A stretch of DNA of 64,000 nt from Steroidobacteraceae bacterium (GCA_036499585.1 DASYDM010000004.1:264361-328360), one strand, 5' to 3'. Shown: positions 33,517 to 41,329, counted from the stretch's first letter. Made by a program: numbers and translations. The notes: a model not told the origin generated them from the letters alone.

Positions 33517-34152
33517 CTAAGGCTTCTGTCCTGTCACGCAGCCCAGCGGCTCGCTCGTGCCGTCGGCGCTCTGCGCTTCCAGATGCACCGCCCGGCCGGC
33601 CAAGGCCTGGACTTCGATCTGCAGCAGGCGGCTGCCGTCCGGCTGCACGCTCACGGAGTAAGCGCCCTCGGGCAGTTCCTTGTGATCCGAGTTCAACGCC
33701 AGCAGCGCGCTGCTCCCGGTGATACCGCCCAAGCGGACCACTGCGTCCGTCGTGCGGGGAGCCAGCTTGATCGCCTGACACTCTTCTGCACCGCGCGTCA
33801 GGTTCAGCGGCATGTTGAAGAACACGGTTCCACCGTCAGAGATGGCGGGATGCGTCGTGCTATGACCGAGCCATCCGCCGGCCGCGCCGACGCTTGTGGC
33901 GAGCAGGACCGAGGCTGCCAGCCGCCATGCGGGTGCCTGTCGGGACCGCGCCGGGACGTTGGCCGCGGGCGTGACCAGGCGCCGCACCTTCGCGGGCATG
34001 TTGATCTTGATTGCGCGCCAGGTCTCGACGTCCTCCACACATTCCGGGCAAGCCATCATGTGCATCTCGAACGCTTCCTGCGTGGGGCCGTCGAGTCCAT
34101 CTGCCACGTAAACGGCCGCCGTCTGATTTGCCTTGAACTGTGAATGATCCAT
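33517..34152 (-). CDS. zf-HC2 anti-sigma factor with one TM and a periplasmic C-terminal domain
   Basis: Start at MDHSQFKAN (ATG 34152, GGGAGA SD), 9 nt after the sigma stop. H-x3-C-x2-C motif HMMACPEC. TM segment WRLAASVLLATSVGAAGGWLG. The ~110-aa C-terminal domain belongs to no family I recognise. Confidence 0.75.
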   Translation of the reverse strand: MDHSQFKANQTAAVYVADGLDGPTQEAFEMHMMACPECVEDVETWRAIKINMPAKVRRLVTPAANVPARSRQAPAWRLAASVLLATSVGAAGGWLGHSTTHPAISDGGTVFFNMPLNLTRGAEECQAIKLAPRTTDAVVRLGGITGSSALLALNSDHKELPEGAYSVSVQPDGSRLLQIEVQALAGRAVHLEAQSADGTSEPLGCVTGQKP

Positions 34153-34160
34153 GGTTCTCC

Positions 34161-34811
34161 CTATCCATGCGTCGACTGGGGTTCGCCCGAGTCGCCGTCG
34201 ATTGCGAGGCCGTTGCGGCGAAGGATGTCGCCGAAACGCTGCCGTGCGCGCCACAAGACCTGGTTGAATTGCATGTCCGTCAACTTCAAAGACTCACGAA
34301 TCGAAGTCCGCGGCTCTTCCTGCAGGTAGAACCGCTCGAGAACCTCCCGATCCCGCGGAACGGGGAGGTGGCCCATCAGATCGCGCACGCACTTTGCGAG
34401 CTGCTCATGATCCACTCGCTCCTCCAGGGACAATGCGTCGTCCTGTAGGTTGGAGAGCAGCTCCTTGTCGTTGTCGTGCTTACGCGAAAGCTCGCCACGC
34501 CAATAGGCCGTCGCCAGCTTGCACGCGGTCCGATAAAGGTATCCTCCGAGATTGCTCGGATCCTCCAACCCCTCTGCGCGGATCTTTTTGATCGCCTGCA
34601 GAAAGGTACGTTGCAACAGATCGTCCGCCGCATCCCGATCGATGCGCCTGTGGAGAAATACCTGCATCAAGGGGCGCCGATATCTCAGGTAGAGTTGGTC
34701 TTGCAGCGCACTTTGTTCGGCTACAGCTTCCACGAGCGACAAATCGCCCCGGTCGGCCCGGTCCAAGGCCTTGTCGGATGTCTCTCCCTGCGCTGTCTCG
34801 CTGTAGGTCAT
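34161..34811 (-). CDS. ECF-type RNA polymerase sigma factor (module 2)
   Basis: Region 2 (DAADDLLQRTFLQAIKKI...YLYRTACKLATAYWR) and region 4 (LPVPRDREVLERFYLQEEPRTSIRESLKLTDMQFNQVLWRARQRF). Confidence 0.85.
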   Translation of the reverse strand: MTYSETAQGETSDKALDRADRGDLSLVEAVAEQSALQDQLYLRYRRPLMQVFLHRRIDRDAADDLLQRTFLQAIKKIRAEGLEDPSNLGGYLYRTACKLATAYWRGELSRKHDNDKELLSNLQDDALSLEERVDHEQLAKCVRDLMGHLPVPRDREVLERFYLQEEPRTSIRESLKLTDMQFNQVLWRARQRFGDILRRNGLAIDGDSGEPQSTHG

Positions 34812-34842
34812 GGACGTTATCTGTTTGCGGCGTGATGTCGAT

Positions 34843-34868
34843 GACGTAGCAGCCGCACGTCTCTATTC
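34843..34868 (-). promoter_or_regulatory. Candidate ECF-type promoter upstream of the ECF sigma 2 gene (GAATAG-N16-CGTC)
   Basis: Minus strand reads GTGGAATAGAGACGTGCGGCTGCTACGTCAT, ending 31 nt before the ATG. The same GAATA-N16-CGTC architecture occurs upstream of the repeat-peptide gene. Confidence 0.35.
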
Positions 34869-35251
34869 CACGAACTCTTCGTTCAGCAATCTAGCATAGG
34901 GGCGACCGCGGCCGCTCCTGCGGGAATCCGAGATCAATTTGGATTAAGTCAAATAAAGGTCGGGAAAGTGTGGGAAGCGTGACCCGGGTCCAATAGGGGA
35001 GGCCCCCGCGGGGGTCCCTCGTTGCTGCATTGCACGGTGAGGGGTGCCCGAAGGGGTCTGGTCAGGGCGTTCGACGGCCCTGAAATCGAGTGGGCTCCCC
35101 CGGGACGGGCTGCGGCGCCCGCCGAGGGTAGTACCGGGATTACTCCATCAACGAAACGATACTCATCGGGCGTGCCGGTAGGAGTGTATCCACACCAAGT
35201 TCGACAACGCGGCGGGGGGGCGCGGGGTGCCCCCTAGCCCGTGTTCCGATG

Positions 35252-35269
35252 TGCCGTCGGACGACGGCA
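35252..35269 (-). terminator. Hairpin directly after the repeat-peptide stop
   Basis: TGCCGTC-GGAC-GACGGCA, a 7-bp perfect stem beginning 6 nt after the stop codon. No U-tract follows, so intrinsic termination is uncertain. Confidence 0.3.
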
Positions 35270-35274
35270 TCAAA

Positions 35275-35532
35275 TCAGTACTGACCGTGGATGACGCCGT
35301 CGTCATTCAACTTCAGATACTGACCGTGAATGACACCATCGTCATTCAACTTGAGATATTGGCCGTGGATGACGCCGTCGTCGGCCAGCTTCAGATACTG
35401 CCCGTGAATGACGCCGTCGTCGGTAAGTTGGTTTGCGGCAGACTGCTCAGCGGCACGGGCTTGACTGTTGGCGGCCATCGCAACGAGCGACAGTGAGGTG
35501 GCGAGCGCGAGCGTCAGGAATTTGCGGGACAT
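35275..35532 (-). CDS. Small secreted protein built from 4 tandem 13-aa repeats (DDGVIHGQYLKLx)
   Basis: 85 aa. GAGGAGA SD 6-7 nt upstream of the ATG. Signal peptide MSRKFLTLALATSLSLVAMAANSQA. The four repeats have an identical 12-aa core but multiple synonymous codon differences. Confidence 0.7.
   Translation of the reverse strand: MSRKFLTLALATSLSLVAMAANSQARAAEQSAANQLTDDGVIHGQYLKLADDGVIHGQYLKLNDDGVIHGQYLKLNDDGVIHGQY
35278..35421 (-). repeat. In-frame 39-bp tandem repeat (3.7 units) encoding DDGVIHGQYLKL(A/N)
   Basis: The units differ only at third-codon positions inside the core (Q CAG/CAA, G GGT/GGC/GGG, I ATC/ATT, D GAC/GAT, L CTG/CTC) and at the one linker codon (T/A/N/N). Confidence 0.9.
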
Positions 35533-35556
35533 GGAAATCTCCTCGAAGAGTGAATG

Positions 35557-35582
35557 GACGGATGAGCAATCCGCGGTTATTC
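35557..35582 (-). promoter_or_regulatory. Candidate ECF-type promoter upstream of the repeat-peptide gene (GAATAA-N16-CGTC)
   Basis: Minus strand reads GTGAATAACCGCGGATTGCTCATCCGTCCAT, with CGTC ending 24 nt before the ATG. It matches the motif and spacing found upstream of the ECF sigma 2 gene. Confidence 0.35.
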
Positions 35583-35642
35583 ACTGCTGCGAGGAGGCGA
35601 GTTATCTCAGAGCCCGCAGCGGGCTACGGACTTCGGCCCAGG

Positions 35643-38600
35643 TTACAGAAGCGTGTCGGGCGTTCCGTACAGGGCGAAGGCGGCCCACACGTGTGGCGAG
35701 TGCGTCCGCAAAGCATCGAGTTGGGCATGCCGCAGAGCCACTCCGGCACTCTGATGGTCAATCAGCAGATATCTGTAGAACGTCTGCATGAAATCCGCAG
35801 TGGCGTCGTCGTCGATCCGCCAATAGCTGGCCAGGACCGCGGCGGCGCCGGCCTCGAGAAAGGCCTGTGCGGGCCCGAGTACGCCCTCTCCGGGCAGCAG
35901 CTTCCCGCGTGAGGTGTCGCATGCGCTCAGCACAACCAGTTTCGAGTTGAGTCGCAGGCGCAGGATGTCGAGCAGCCCGAACGCCGAGGTGGCCGGAGTG
36001 TCCTTAGGGTCGGGCGTCAACGCCAAAGCCGACAGTCTGGGGCGCTGCGCGTCTACTCTGGCATGCGTGGCGATATGGAGGAGGTCCGGTCCTGCGCTCG
36101 CGGCAGCCTTCAGTCCACTGGCAACCGCGTTGCATCCCAGGAGAGTTTCGACGTGACTGAGTGGCCGCGCCTGGCGTGCCAACATCGCGACCATGGAAAT
36201 TTCGGCTCGCGAGCCGGGCAGTCGGGGCAGACTTTCGGTCCAGTCGGTCATCGTGCGCTCGGCATGTGCCGTTCGCGGTTCGGGGGCCGCGCTCTTCCCC
36301 TCGATGCACTCCCGACGCCAGTCGGCTACCCGGAATACCGGATCGCCGATGAGCTCGATGCGAGGCGCCGCCCGAGGTGTCTGCCGGGTCGCGGGCCGCG
36401 TGATGAACATGACCGCAGGGGCCACGGATGTTTCGAAGTGTTGCACGAGGAGATCCGTTGCCGAGTGGGTCCATGGCAAGACGGCGAACGGAATCGTGTG
36501 CAGGGCATCGTCGGGTACGAAAATCAGCCGGCGCGTTGCCAGACGGTCGCGTAGCGGCCATATGACAAGTCGAGCGAGCCGTTCGGACGCTTGACTGATG
36601 AGTGAGGGACGTGACTCCGGATCTCTCAGGACATCGCGGAGAGCCGTCGCGGCGTCCGTCACCGCGTCCCGGTCCCCGAGGCGCACGACATCTACACCTT
36701 TCGCACTGACGACAAACGCGAATAGGTTCTGCATGCCGACGGCGTATTCAACCGCGGTCGCTTCGAGCCGCCCCAGCGTCTGCGTCAGTGCGTCGCGCTC
36801 GATCGTCTGGATCGGTGTGCCGATGGTCTGATGGCTCGCTACTTCCCCCAGCCGCCGTACCAATTCGTCGGAGGCAGACACGGGAATGCCTTGCAGGGCC
36901 ACGATGTCCTGTACGTATTTTCCGTATGCGCCCTCCGAAACGGTCGCTTCAGCCGCTGCGTCCCGGGCCTGCTGCGACTCCGCGAATCGCAGGCTTCGAG
37001 CCCGTCCCCGTTCCGAAGTCTCGAACGCCTGCCAGGCGGACCCCTTGCCTAGGCTGGCCTGCGTAGCCAGGAGGTCGGTCAACTGCGCGAACGCTTCGTG
37101 TTGGGTCGCGAGGAAGGTGGCGCGCTTCTCACCATCGAGCTCGTCGATTGGTACGGCTTCCGCAACACGCTCGGCGACTTCCAGTGCGCGTCCGGCCTCG
37201 TCGGGTCGCCGGGTGTTTGCGGAGGCAACGAGGCGCAACGAGGTAACCGTCTGCTCGACGTCGCCACGCGCCACACTCGAATGCAGGGCCTCGTTCGCAT
37301 CCTGCAGCGCGCGAGTTTCGTTTTTGGCCAGAAGCTCTGATCTCACCAGGCCCAGCTGGGCGGTACCGCGCCGCCCGTTTCCCGCAGGAATGTTGGCGCG
37401 GTCAGCTATTCGCAGCGCCTTGTCGAAAGAAGACCGCGCAGCGGCCGGCTTGCCTTTGACCAGGAAGCCGTCGCCCTCCGCGGATGCGAGCTTCATCTGC
37501 GTGCGGGTGTCAGTGGCGTAGGGGCGGGCGGCGTTCAGGCAGCGTTGGGACTGAACGGTCTCGCCCTCGAACCCCAGAGTATCGTGCAGCCAGTAAAGGG
37601 CATCGAAGACAGTCGCGAGGTTGTCCGCGCCGAGCATGCCTGGGTCGATGGGTTCGGCGCACAGATCCGCCCGGTTGTTATCCAGGTTGGGGGTGCCGCT
37701 CGCGACTTCGGGCGTCGTTTCGGGTGACCCGGGCGTGGGGAGCGAGGCGACGGCGTAGTTCATGAGTGCCGGGCAATCGAGCGAGGCGGCGTTCTGCAGC
37801 GCCCCTTCCGCATCCGCCAGTTCGCCGATCTGTGACAGCACGGCCCCGATGCGAGCCAGGCTCCGGCGCACCCCGGAGCAATCACCGATCCGAGCGTACG
37901 CCCGCATCGCCTCCGTATAGCTGCGCTGACTTTCGCTGAACAACCCGACCCGGGCCTGCACCCTGCCGAGATTGTTGCGGATGTCGGCCACCAGTCGCGC
38001 GTAACGCCGGGAATCCAGACGCCGCAGGGCTTCGCCGTACACCGCCAGGGCTTGTGAGAAATGGCCGTTTTCCTCTGCCAGCACCGCCAGGTTCTGACTG
38101 CCGGTCCCGTAGCACTCCCAATCGCCCAACTGCGCGCAGCGACGCGACGCTTGCGCAAACAGGGGCTGCGCTTTGGCGGCGGCGTCCAGCTTATATTCAA
38201 GGAGTCCGGTCACGAGGTCGAGGCGTGGGAGCTCGCGTGTTGACGCGGGGCCATCCGCCCACACCTGTCTTGCCGCCGCCAACCGCTCTCGGATCCGCGG
38301 TTCGATTGCGGGCAGACCGTCGCGATCCTCCGGCATATCGATCAACGACTTCGCTTGGAGCGCAGCCAGCGCTCCCATGGCGGCCGCGTCGGTCGTTGGC
38401 GAGTAGTCGTCCATTGCCTGGGCGGACAGGGCGTAGGCATCGCGCTTGTGGTCGAAGCGACGGTACGCAAGCTCCGCCATGGCGTGCCTCGCACGGCCTG
38501 CGGGTTCTCTCAACCCTAGTTGGTCGAAGACGCGTGCCGCACGCAGATAGCTGGCGAAGGCCGCTTCCCAGTCAGTCGTCTGGACTGCTATCCCAGCGTC

Positions 38601-39074
38601 CGCGAAGTCCCTCGCGGGTCGTTCCATCGGGGAGTGCGGAGGAAGGACTCGGGCGGCAACGCAGACTTGTCCTTGGACATCGCGGGAGTCTTCGGAGCGG
38701 ATGTGGACGGTGGCCGTCTCACCGGGTCTGGTGTCGCTCACCAGCGCGATGGTTCCCAATCGGTCCACCGGCGACGCGCCTGACCGCGCGATTGTTGGCC
38801 CCAGCGCCGCCGTCGGAGACCCCGGCGTGGCCACGCCCGCCGGCGCCGAACTTTGACGTCCTAACGAGGCGGACACCGCGATGCCTCGTTCCTCGAGCGT
38901 CACCACGAGAGTGCCGCCGGGTGAGCGAATCGGCACGGAAGCCGGCGTCTCACCGCCGACCGAAAGACATTTCTGCTCGAATATCGGCGGCGGAATTTCG
39001 GTCCCACAGGAGCTGAGCAGCGCGACGCAAAACGCGAGCGCCCAATAGCCCACTGCCCGTGAATGACTCTTCAT
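35643..39074 (-). CDS. TPR-repeat CHAT-domain (caspase-like, clan CD) lipoprotein
   Basis: 1143 aa. Lipoprotein signal [23 protein letters not shown]. Central TPR-like helical repeats. C-terminal CHAT domain with candidate catalytic His (LLHIATHA) and Cys ([11 protein letters not shown]). Confidence 0.85.
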
Positions 39075-39160
39075 GCCGACGGTCTTTGCCTATGCACCTG
39101 TGGCGCTACAGCTACGGTATGCTGCCAGTGCGCTCCGATCCAAGTCTGCGAGGGGACGAC

Positions 39161-41329
<2,169 letters not shown>

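What the first reader, a model, noticed from the sequence alone, without database searches (positions are those of the whole stretch)
35275..35532. Small secreted ORF whose 39-bp tandem repeats differ only synonymously
The sequence after the signal peptide (MSRKFLTLALATSLSLVAMAANSQA) is 4 head-to-tail copies of DDGVIHGQYLKL, separated by one variable residue (T/A/N/N).

At the DNA level the copies are not identical. I count synonymous differences at Gln (CAG/CAA), two Gly (GGT/GGC/GGG), Ile (ATC/ATT), Asp (GAC/GAT) and Leu (CTG/CTC) codons. There is no amino-acid change in the 12-residue core.

That pattern argues for purifying selection on the peptide sequence rather than recent slippage, and it strongly supports translation of the ORF. 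A strong SD (GAGGAGA) precedes the ATG. The Asp-Asp-Gly / His / Tyr content suggests either metal binding or a polyprotein precursor that releases 13-mers.
Basis: seen in the sequence. Interest (0 to 1): 0.7.

Follow-up and report, generated by a model that had tools for sequence, protein, structure and literature searches.

The report
Mini-protein built from a repeated tail
The small repeat ORF is a real, selected gene: a shrunken version of a conserved 195-residue periplasmic protein that kept only its export signal and four copies of its C-terminal tail, and it sits in a protease/sigma-factor signalling cassette whose trigger is unknown.

Summary
Window 35275-35532 (- strand) encodes an 85-aa protein: a Sec-type signal peptide, a 9-residue linker, then three full copies and one truncated copy of x-DDGVIHGQY(LKL).

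All 9 or more nucleotide changes among the copies are synonymous (P about 1e-6 to 1e-5). Four orthologues show 23 synonymous versus 7 non-synonymous changes (P = 2e-9). dN/dS is 0.06-0.10, as low as in the neighbouring genes.

The peptide has no family of its own, but synteny explains it. Steroidobacteraceae carry a fixed cassette: TPR-CHAT lipoprotein, protein X (about 195 aa, secreted, no Pfam), S8 protease, ECF sigma factor, zinc-finger anti-sigma factor.

In this lineage X's beta-rich domain and the S8 gene are deleted. What remains of X is its signal peptide plus its conserved C-terminal tail (VQLDDDGVIH + 2-3 residues), now present four times.

My inference is that the tail is the part of X that talks to the CHAT protease or the anti-sigma factor, and that this lineage makes it as a free, multivalent ligand.

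Metal binding and release of 13-mers are neither supported nor excluded. The gene and its origin are well supported. The mechanism is inferred.

The parts
35275..35532 (-). 85-aa ORF including stop: the repeat mini-protein, a remodelled orthologue of protein X
35452..35532 (-). Residues 1-27, Sec-type signal peptide (MSRK / hydrophobic core / ANSQARA). It is homologous to the signal peptide of family X (60% identity over 30 aa).
   Evidence: the cleavage site is inferred from the A-x-A pattern and was not predicted with a tool
35425..35451 (-). Linker AEQSAANQL. It probably corresponds to the ...SPSTVQL segment that precedes the tail in X.
   Evidence: sequence inspection
35278..35424 (-). Array of three full 39-bp units and one 30-bp unit encoding x-DDGVIHGQY(LKL). 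Each unit corresponds to the C-terminal tail of X.
35538..35544 (-). Shine-Dalgarno sequence GAGGAGA. AGGAG is invariant in 8 orthologous loci.
35545..35610 (-). Conserved leader between CHAT and X/peptide (TGAGATAA...CTCCTCGCAGCAGTGA...). It contains a CTCCTCG segment complementary to the SD. It could be an ECF-type promoter, an SD-sequestering leader, or both.
   Evidence: paired positions are invariant, so there is no covariation evidence
35250..35272 (-). GC-rich hairpin immediately after the stop codon (-11 to -14 kcal/mol). The stem is conserved and the loop varies among the 4 orthologues. There is no U-tract.
34902..35249 (-). Poorly conserved spacer where the S8 protease gene lies in relatives. 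The peptide-sigma intergenic region as a whole (34812-35274) is 71% identical, with many indels, between the window and its 91%-identical sister locus; the divergence is concentrated in this part.
34774..34901 (-). Remnant of the 3' end of the lost S8 protease gene (matches S8 residues 331-360 and 391-409). It overlaps the start of the sigma gene, as in the intact cassettes.
35643..39074 (-). TPR-CHAT caspase-like protease, 1143 aa. It has an N-terminal lipobox (LLSSC). The His and Cys of the catalytic dyad region are invariant in 24 homologues.
34161..34811 (-). ECF sigma factor, 216 aa
33517..34152 (-). Anti-sigma factor, 211 aa from MDHSQ. It has a zf-HC2 (HxxxCxxC) motif, one transmembrane helix, and a periplasmic domain of about 100 aa with two Cys.

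Best explanation
SHOWN. The ORF is a real protein-coding gene under purifying selection. It is the positional and sequence orthologue of 'protein X'. X is a conserved, uncharacterised, secreted, beta-rich protein of about 195 aa. In Steroidobacteraceae it lies between a periplasmic TPR-CHAT lipoprotein and an S8 subtilase, upstream of an ECF sigma factor and its zinc-finger anti-sigma factor.

In one shallow clade (four sequences known) the following has happened:
- The roughly 150-residue domain of X is gone.
- The S8 gene is gone except for a 3' remnant.
- X survives as its signal peptide plus four tandem copies of its conserved C-terminal tail.
- The last copy ends, as in X, three residues after the His.

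INFERRED. After Sec export and signal-peptide cleavage, the product is a 58-aa acidic periplasmic mini-protein predicted to form a four-stranded beta-meander, with xDDG turns and VIHGQYLKL strands.

The tail was kept, multiplied and frozen at the amino-acid level, while X's domain and S8 were discarded together. CHAT, sigma and anti-sigma all stayed under selection. From this I infer that the tail is the element through which X acts on the TPR-CHAT protease and/or the periplasmic domain of the anti-sigma factor. It could act as a ligand, a docking strand or a pseudosubstrate. X's domain and S8 would then form the upstream layer that controls exposure of the tail.

In this lineage the tail is made directly, in multivalent form. 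The input to the sigma/anti-sigma switch would therefore be set by expression of the peptide rather than by S8 and X. The logic resembles that of OMP C-terminal strands, which are buried in the folded barrel and activate DegS cleavage of RseA when exposed.
For: Gene reality:
- All 9 or more changes among the copies are synonymous, P about 1e-6 to 1e-5.
- Four orthologues give 23 synonymous vs 7 non-synonymous changes, P = 2e-9. The antisense frame gives 6 vs 24.
- dN/dS is 0.06-0.10 for the peptide, against 0.14 for CHAT, 0.02 for sigma and 0.16 for anti-sigma, at similar dS.
- There is an in-frame indel.
- GC3 is 0.72, like the neighbouring genes.
- The downstream spacer is only 71% identical, with indels.
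- Copy-specific synonymous markers are shared by the orthologues, so the array is old and is not being homogenised.

Origin:
- Six of six loci with full-length X show acs | CHAT - X - S8 - sigma - anti-sigma | exonuclease at the same chromosomal position.
- The derived loci have the peptide in X's place and no S8.
- The peptide N-terminus matches X residues 1-30 at 60% identity. Each repeat matches X residues 184-196. S8 C-terminal remnants lie at 34774-34901.
- The tail profile in 120 of 120 X proteins is [VI][QK]LD[DE][DN]GV[IL]H, followed by 2-3 residues and the stop in 117 of 120.

Structure:
- In the AF2 model of X (pLDDT 72) the tail is the last strand, after a low-confidence linker.
- The peptide alone is modelled as a 4-strand meander (pLDDT 61).

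Module integrity:
- The CHAT dyad region is invariant.
- Sigma is 92% and anti-sigma 63% identical to the nearest full cassette.

Precedent:
Against: - No experiment or computation here shows any contact between the tail and CHAT, the anti-sigma factor or S8. Multimer modelling was not available.
- In the X model the tail is simply the last strand of the fold, so its conservation could be purely structural.
- The family-invariant first Asp of the tail (LD-DDG) is the one position that varies (T/A/N) in the repeats.
- AF2 confidence for the peptide is low and came from a single sequence.
- Only one shallow clade (four sequences, CHAT at least 91% identical) carries the derived form. Long-term retention is therefore shown only over dS of about 0.3, although synonymous divergence among the copies (pS 0.5-0.8) suggests an older array.
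- Signal-peptide cleavage was not predicted with a dedicated tool.
Confidence: 0.55

Rival explanations
1. Polyprotein precursor. After export, the array is cut once per unit by the neighbouring CHAT caspase-like protease. The cut could be after the invariant Asp-Asp or after Lys. This would release four near-identical 13-mers that act as a signal or effector, as with yeast alpha-factor or multi-core RiPP precursors.
For: - There are four units with an invariant 9-residue core in 16 of 16 copies across the orthologues.
- A protease with an intact dyad region is encoded immediately upstream.
- Selection acts on every copy separately, as expected if dosage of a released peptide matters.
Against: - The ancestral state is one copy at the end of a folded domain.
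- The Lys is K/R/Q in copy 1, the junction residue is T/A/N, and Leu changes to Ile in copy 3. No fixed flanking recognition site is evident other than DD.
- The subtilase, which is the typical processing enzyme for such precursors, was lost in exactly this lineage.
- The cassette holds no modification or export genes.
- The last unit lacks LKL.
Confidence: 0.15
2. Metal-binding repeat peptide. The Asp-Asp-Gly, His and Tyr of each unit chelate Ca2+, Zn2+ or another cation in the periplasm.
For: The mature peptide contains 8 Asp, 4 His and 4 Tyr in 58 residues and has pI 4.6. The DD[DN]G and His positions are conserved in family X.
Against: - It does not match any metal-binding family in Pfam or NCBIfam.
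- The motif is not a DxDxDG loop.
- In the models DDG sits in tight beta-turns.
- His is replaced by Gln, Ile or Val in 18 of 120 X tails.
- No metal transport or homeostasis genes lie in the cassette.
Confidence: 0.07
3. Free-standing beta-sheet mini-protein with a new role unrelated to the cassette, for example a self-assembling or amyloid-like surface material or an antimicrobial peptide. It would have been built opportunistically from leftovers of X.
For: The predicted beta-meander of identical strands is the kind of sequence that can stack. A stable hairpin after the stop codon would allow higher expression than for the downstream genes.
Against: It keeps X's exact position, leader element and SD. 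It also keeps the ancestral C-terminal geometry. No secretion or immunity genes were gained.
Confidence: 0.1
4. Decaying remnant: a pseudogene fragment of X that merely happens to remain open. Alternatively, a non-coding repeat or a gene on the + strand.
For: The region has clearly undergone large deletions. The antisense frame is open in all four orthologues.
Against: - Synonymous vs non-synonymous counts are 23 vs 7, P = 2e-9, and there is an in-frame indel.
- The antisense frame shows 6 vs 24.
- The flanking true remnant DNA is far more diverged.
- There is no Rfam match.
Confidence: 0.03

Closest known systems
Protein X: an unnamed family of about 190-198-aa secreted proteins of Steroidobacteraceae (469 clusters at 90% identity; no Pfam, NCBIfam or PDB relative)
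   Same: Same chromosomal slot, directly after the TPR-CHAT gene, with the same conserved leader and SD. Homologous signal peptide. The same C-terminal motif, ending 3 residues after the His.
   Different: The whole beta-rich domain (about 150 residues, including the invariant Cys pair and the HAGLAA, PADFEC, SSPFLAMSG and HWYG motifs) is missing. The tail is present four times instead of once. The first, family-invariant Asp of the tail is not kept.
[quoted passage not shown]
   Same: An ECF sigma factor, a zinc-finger (HxxxCxxC) single-pass anti-sigma factor and a periplasmic TPR-CHAT caspase-like module with a His/Cys dyad are combined. In both systems the activating signal is unknown.
   Different: Here TPR-CHAT is a separate lipoprotein rather than fused to the anti-sigma factor. 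The cassette adds X (or the peptide) and usually an S8 protease. There are no CBASS or CRISPR neighbours. The CHAT family profile finds no PDB chain at E <= 0.01, so the relationship is distant.
Sigma-E envelope-stress pathway (OMP C-terminal strand, DegS, RseA, with RseB as modulator); from established knowledge
   Same: The proposed logic is the same. The last beta-strand of a periplasmic or outer-membrane beta-protein, normally packed into the fold, acts when exposed as the peptide signal for proteolysis of an anti-sigma factor.
   Different: The cassette has no PDZ protease. The terminal residues of X are not conserved and there is no YxF-COOH. The protease families are CHAT and S8. This is an analogy only.
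Multi-copy peptide precursors (yeast alpha-factor with four 13-mers; the cyanobactin PatE precursor cut by the S8 proteases PatA and PatG); from established knowledge
   Same: Tandem identical short units follow an N-terminal targeting sequence, and proteases are encoded nearby.
   Different: This peptide has a Sec signal rather than a RiPP leader. There are no conserved flanking recognition sequences, no modification enzymes, and the S8 gene has been lost. The weak NCBIfam hit of the relatives' S8 to PatA (E = 0.013, far below the cut-off) is not evidence.
Separase-securin and Craspase Csx29-Csx30-RpoE (TPR-CHAT proteases controlled by, or acting on, small partner proteins; as cited in PMC11506125)
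   Same: A TPR-CHAT protease is paired with a small partner protein that is a substrate or pseudosubstrate. In Craspase the output is a sigma-E-type factor.
   Different: Those systems are cytoplasmic, and their partners have no sequence similarity to this peptide. No RNA-guided component is present here.

Membership tests
Protein X family (uncharacterised; Steroidobacteraceae CHAT/S8/ECF cassette) | Encoded directly downstream of the TPR-CHAT gene and upstream of the ECF sigma / anti-sigma pair, between acs and the 5'-3' exonuclease | tested here: met
   Same flanks and order in the window and in L082 as in six loci with full-length X. The shared leader/SD element is shown.
Protein X family (uncharacterised; Steroidobacteraceae CHAT/S8/ECF cassette) | N-terminal signal peptide of the type MSRK...LALAAQ.CL..LAANSPARA | tested here: met
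   60% identity over residues 1-30, E = 6e-5 in a small local search. Family N-termini are listed.
Protein X family (uncharacterised; Steroidobacteraceae CHAT/S8/ECF cassette) | Beta-rich domain of about 150 residues with invariant Cys46/Cys114 and the motifs HAGLAA, PADFEC.PG, SSPFLAMSG and HWYG | tested here: not met
   Absent. The ORF goes from signal peptide to tail with only a 9-residue linker. The peptide is therefore a derivative of the family, not a regular member.
Protein X family (uncharacterised; Steroidobacteraceae CHAT/S8/ECF cassette) | C-terminal tail [VI][QK]LD[DE][DN]GV[IL]H followed by 2-3 residues and the stop | tested here: met
   Present four times as LKLxDDGVIHGQY. The last copy ends 3 residues after His. 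The first Asp is replaced by T/A/N.
Multi-core secreted or RiPP peptide precursor (alpha-factor- or cyanobactin-like) | Conserved protease recognition sequences flanking each core | tested here: not met
   Junction residues vary (T/A/N; K/R/Q; L/I) among copies and orthologues.
Multi-core secreted or RiPP peptide precursor (alpha-factor- or cyanobactin-like) | Dedicated processing or modification enzymes encoded alongside | tested here: inconclusive
   A CHAT protease is adjacent, but it is ancestral to the cassette, in which X has a single tail. The S8 protease was lost. There are no modification enzymes.
Multi-core secreted or RiPP peptide precursor (alpha-factor- or cyanobactin-like) | Released unit peptides detectable | not testable with these tools
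   Needs mass spectrometry.
DdvA-type anti-sigma / TPR-CHAT ECF system | Cytoplasmic zinc-binding anti-sigma domain (HxxxCxxC) plus a single transmembrane helix, paired with an ECF sigma factor | tested here: met
   zf-HC2 hit above the cut-off, HMMACPEC motif and Sigma70_r2 / TIGR02937 hits.
DdvA-type anti-sigma / TPR-CHAT ECF system | TPR-CHAT domain fused to the periplasmic end of the anti-sigma factor | tested here: not met
   TPR-CHAT is a separate 1143-aa lipoprotein. The anti-sigma periplasmic part is only about 100 aa.
Sigma-E / DegS-type C-terminal peptide sensing | PDZ-domain site-1 protease and a conserved aromatic C-terminal tripeptide (YxF-COOH) | tested here: not met
   No PDZ domain in any cassette protein. 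The last residue of X is N, Q, D, S, H and so on, and Tyr in only 1 of 120.
EF-hand-like / DxDxDG calcium-binding loops | DxDxDG spacing of ligand residues | tested here: not met
   The sequence is (N/T/A)DDGV. There is no Pfam hit.
Any Rfam RNA family (non-coding alternative) | Covariance-model match at or near the gathering score | tested here: not met
   Only a 23-bit hit to a vertebrate lncRNA model (gathering score 50), outside the ORF.

The most novel reading that the evidence does not exclude
The four-fold tail peptide is the natural minimal ligand that switches on, or blocks, a periplasmic TPR-CHAT caspase-like protease acting as site-1 protease on a zinc-finger anti-sigma factor. In ordinary Steroidobacteraceae the same tail is kept latched onto protein X and is released under control of the S8 protease. 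This lineage would then be a natural experiment that isolates the signal of a previously undescribed CHAT-dependent ECF signalling pathway. That would address the question left open for DdvA: what triggers CHAT-linked anti-sigma factors.
Probability: 0.2. Interest if true: 0.8.

Novelty: new variant of a known kind. Interest (0 to 1): 0.55.

Why it matters
Periplasmic TPR-CHAT proteases linked to ECF sigma/anti-sigma pairs have only just been described. There is one characterised case, DdvA, and its activating signal is unknown.

This window shows a split, five-gene version of such a system that is fixed in a soil gammaproteobacterial family. One lineage has stripped the accessory protein X down to four copies of a 13-residue tail and has discarded the S8 protease. 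This points to a short, synthesisable peptide (DDGVIHGQY with its flanks) as the element to test for binding to, or cleavage by, the CHAT protease and the anti-sigma factor.

It is also a clean example of a new small gene arising by domain loss plus tail amplification. The synonymous divergence among the copies documents selection on each copy.

Tried and rejected
- **Word-indexed homology search with the peptide** found only the peptide itself and one 94% relative.
- **Exhaustive phmmer against 1.84 billion representatives** gave 24 further hits. All are unrelated proteins, mostly eukaryote-like, that happen to have a 13-residue period. They have no shared motif and unrelated Pfam domains, and I rejected them as periodicity artefacts.
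- **Pfam and NCBIfam** gave nothing for the peptide or for X. A PDB sequence-profile search gave nothing for X, the CHAT family or the anti-sigma factor.
- **Foldseek of the X model against PDB** gave only weak lipocalin/FABP-like matches (E >= 0.03, TM 0.37-0.46). I do not call X a lipocalin.
- **The genome-contig scan with the CHAT alignment** was swamped by generic CHAT patterns and yielded only one true orthologous locus, L002.
- **The metagenome scan with the peptide** added one more orthologue, L088. No arrays with other copy numbers were found.
- **Promoter and terminator consensus scans** of 34700-35700 found nothing. I could not define an ECF-type promoter with confidence. The motif AGCATACCGTAG upstream of CHAT occurs only once in the window.
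- **Relative-rate comparison** showed only slightly faster evolution of CHAT and anti-sigma in the derived lineage, which is not informative.
- **Literature searches** for ECF groups associated with CHAT or S8 found only the DdvA and Craspase papers.

Full report
**1. What is in the sequence**

On the minus strand, 35532 to 35275 is an ATG-initiated ORF of 85 codons:

MSRKFLTLALATSLSLVAMAANSQARA | AEQSAANQL | T-DDGVIHGQYLKL | A-DDGVIHGQYLKL | N-DDGVIHGQYLKL | N-DDGVIHGQY-stop

- GAGGAGA lies 5 nt upstream of the ATG.
- Tandem Repeats Finder reports a 39-bp period, 3.8 copies, 83% identity and no indels.

Three details need correcting:
- A 9-11-residue linker separates the signal peptide from the array.
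- The fourth copy lacks LKL.
- Eight sites vary synonymously, not six.

**2. Is it more than chance, and is it translated?**

Within the array:
- At least 9 nucleotide changes separate the copies, and none alters the 12-residue core.
- With 21-29% of random changes expected to be synonymous, the probability is 9e-7 to 1.5e-5.
- Pairwise synonymous divergence among copies is high (pS 0.50-0.80, pN = 0). The copies are therefore old and are not the product of recent slippage.

Between orthologues:
- Three more orthologues exist: L001, L082 and L088.
- All have the same arrangement of three full copies and one truncated copy.
- DDGVIHGQY is intact in 16 of 16 copies.
- Copy-specific synonymous markers are shared. 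Examples are CAA-TAT-CTC in copy 2 and GAT in copy 3. The array therefore predates their divergence and is not being homogenised.
- Across the four sequences there are at least 23 synonymous and 7 non-synonymous changes, against a neutral expectation of 76% non-synonymous (P = 2e-9).
- There is also one in-frame 3-nt indel.
- The antisense frame is open, as is common in GC-rich DNA, but shows 6 synonymous and 24 non-synonymous changes.

Comparison with the neighbouring genes (window vs L082):

| Region | dN/dS |
|---|---|
| Peptide | 0.06 |
| CHAT | 0.14 |
| Sigma | 0.02 |
| Anti-sigma | 0.16 |

- dS is similar for all four, at about 0.2-0.3.
- The DNA just downstream of the ORF is only 71% identical and full of indels.
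- GC3 of the ORF (0.72) matches the neighbours.
- No Rfam family matches.

I conclude that this is a real, selected protein-coding gene.

**3. No family of its own**

- The word-indexed search found only the peptide itself (named 'hypothetical protein, Steroidobacteraceae bacterium' MAG) and one 94% relative.
- The exhaustive phmmer search produced only proteins that share a 13-residue period and nothing else.
- Pfam and NCBIfam gave nothing.

**4. Context explains it**

The ORF lies in a minus-strand gene string:
- TPR-CHAT protein (35643-39074; 1143 aa; lipobox LLSSC).
- The peptide.
- A 463-bp gap.
- ECF sigma factor (34161-34811).
- zf-HC2 anti-sigma factor (33517-34152).

The string is flanked by divergent acs and convergent 5'-3' exonuclease genes.

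The CHAT protein has many full-length homologues of 47-65% identity in Steroidobacteraceae and soil metagenomes. The His/Cys dyad region is invariant in them.

I inspected six such loci: L002, L083, L084/85, L086/87, L089 and L090. All have the same flanks and the following order:
- CHAT
- a secreted protein of about 195 aa, here called X
- Peptidase_S8 of about 410 aa
- sigma factor
- anti-sigma factor

Only the window's clade (window and L082, where the flanks could be read; L001 and L088 carry the same peptide on short contigs) has the 85/86-aa ORF in X's place and no S8 gene.

**5. The peptide is a remodelled X**

X forms a tight family:
- 469 clusters, 189-198 aa long, 60-96% identical.
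- No Pfam, NCBIfam or PDB relative.

Evidence for the relationship:
- The peptide's first 30 residues align to X's signal peptide at 60% identity. Compare MSRK..LALA...LAANS.ARA in both.
- Each repeat aligns to X's last 13 residues. For example, X has VQLDDDGVLHGHY-stop and the peptide has LKLNDDGVIHGQY-stop.
- In 120 of 120 X proteins the tail reads [V/I][Q/K]-L-D-[D/E]-[D/N]-G-V-[I/L]-H. It is followed by 2-3 variable residues and the stop in 117 of 120.
- The window's last copy keeps exactly this C-terminal geometry.
- Remnants of the C-terminal end of S8 (residues 331-360 and 391-409) are still detectable at 34901-34774. They abut and overlap the sigma start, as in intact cassettes.

The derived state therefore arose in three steps, whose order is unknown:
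- loss of X's domain of about 150 residues
- loss of nearly all of S8
- amplification of X's tail to four copies

**6. Structure**

- AF2 on a 50-sequence alignment of X gives a beta-rich fold (pLDDT 72, pTM 0.72).
- In that model the tail is the last strand (residues 189-195, local pLDDT about 82) after a low-confidence linker.
- Foldseek finds only weak calycin-like similarity, which is not significant.
- The peptive alone is modelled as a four-stranded beta-meander with xDDG turns. Confidence is low (pLDDT 61, single sequence).
- The predicted mature product (Ala28-Tyr85) has 58 aa, a mass of 6.33 kDa and pI 4.6.

**7. Mechanism (inference)**

All cassette products meet in the periplasm:
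- CHAT is a lipoprotein.
- X and S8 have signal peptides.
- The anti-sigma factor has a periplasmic domain of about 100 aa containing two Cys.

The one characterised relative in kind is DdvA/DdvS. There a ZAS anti-sigma factor carries a periplasmic TPR-CHAT domain, proposed to clip its own linker as a site-1 protease. The signal is unknown (PMC11506125).

In the lineage studied here:
- CHAT, sigma and anti-sigma remain under purifying selection.
- X's domain and S8 were lost together.
- The tail was retained, multiplied and frozen.

The simplest reading has two parts:
- The tail is the part of X that contacts CHAT (the TPR groove or the active site) and/or the anti-sigma periplasmic domain.
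- X's domain together with S8 is an upstream layer that controls tail exposure.

Making the tail as a free, tetravalent mini-protein would bypass that layer. The logic parallels OMP C-terminal strands activating DegS. Membership in that system fails, however: there is no PDZ domain and no conserved C-terminal residues.

I give about 0.9 to 'real gene derived from X' and about 0.35-0.4 to the ligand or pseudosubstrate mechanism specifically.

**8. Rivals**

- **Polyprotein releasing 13-mers.** This is not excluded, since CHAT is adjacent and every copy is under selection. Four points count against it: the single-copy ancestry, the variable junction residues (T/A/N; K/R/Q; L/I), the loss of S8, and the absence of maturation genes.
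- **Metal binding.** There is no positive evidence. The motif is not a DxDxDG loop, and His is replaced in 15% of X tails (18 of 120).
- **Unrelated new role as a self-assembling beta-peptide.** This is possible but unsupported.
- **Pseudogene or non-coding element.** This is rejected by the substitution pattern.

**9. Other features around the gene**

- The CHAT-X/peptide intergenic region carries an element conserved in all eight loci: TGAGATAA-N-CTCCTCGCAGCAGTGA.
- Its CTCCTCG segment is complementary to the invariant SD. RNAalifold pairs the two, but the paired positions never vary, so there is no covariation evidence.
- The element could be an ECF-type promoter (..ATAAC-N16-GTGA..), an SD-sequestering leader, or both.
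- A conserved GC-rich hairpin with a variable loop follows the peptide stop codon.

**10. Verdict**

The functional guesses are not supported.

The new result is the origin of the ORF. It is a domain-less, tail-amplified derivative of a conserved but uncharacterised periplasmic protein, inside an undescribed split TPR-CHAT / S8 / ECF sigma / anti-sigma cassette.

The finding is of moderate to good interest. It singles out a short peptide as the candidate signalling element of CHAT-linked ECF systems.

Noticed in passing
window 35545-35610 (- strand); also L082, L083, L084, L087, L089, L090 and L002 between CHAT and X: The intergenic element TGAGATAA...CTCCTCGCAGCAGTGA is conserved in all 8 loci, more strongly than the adjacent coding DNA. 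Its CTCCTCG segment can pair with the invariant SD CGAGGAG. It could be an ECF-type promoter, a translational leader, or both. No covariation is available because the paired bases never vary.
   Followed up: partly
window 39112-39123 (- strand); about 40-50 nt upstream of the CHAT start in L082, L083, L084 and L087: The motif AGCATACCGTAG is identical in five orthologous acs-CHAT intergenic regions that are otherwise divergent. It occurs once in the window. It may be a promoter or operator for the CHAT gene or for divergent acs.
   Followed up: partly
window 35250-35272 (- strand): A GC-rich hairpin (GCCGTC...GACGGC, -11 to -14 kcal/mol) lies directly after the peptide stop codon. It is conserved in four orthologues with differing loops and has no U-tract. 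It may be an attenuator or an mRNA-stabilising element separating the peptide from the sigma / anti-sigma genes.
   Followed up: partly
window 34161-34811 vs 35643-39074 and 33517-34152: The ECF sigma factor is much more conserved across the family (77-93% identity between the six loci, leaving aside the near-identical window/L082 pair) than its CHAT (52-66%) and anti-sigma (53-66%) partners. Protein X (60-80%) is also more conserved than CHAT.
   Followed up: partly
L086 10426-11201 (NCBI GCA_900155025.1) vs L087: Two contigs carry the identical CHAT protein. In one of them the sigma gene is called as only 86 aa after a gap of about 500 bp. This is probably an assembly error or frameshift, or else a disrupted allele.
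   Followed up: no
window 39059-41329 (+ strand): The mechanical ORF for acetyl-CoA synthetase starts at GTG 39059 and overlaps the CHAT start. The conserved ATG (MPDKNIKSV...) is at 39161, which leaves an acs-CHAT intergenic region of about 86 bp.
   Followed up: yes
proteins P0003-P0026: phmmer of a short tandem-repeat query against 1.8 billion proteins returned E-values down to 1e-13 for unrelated proteins that merely share a 13-residue period. Such hits are periodicity artefacts and should not be read as homology.
   Followed up: yes
L083 6138-7364 and orthologues (S8 protease of the intact cassettes): The cassette subtilase has a signal peptide and a DDDGNGYVDDVHG segment that superficially resembles X's tail LDDDGVIHG. 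This is probably a coincidence of a common subtilase calcium-loop motif. Its best NCBIfam similarity is to mycosin-type proteases, far below the cut-off.
   Followed up: no
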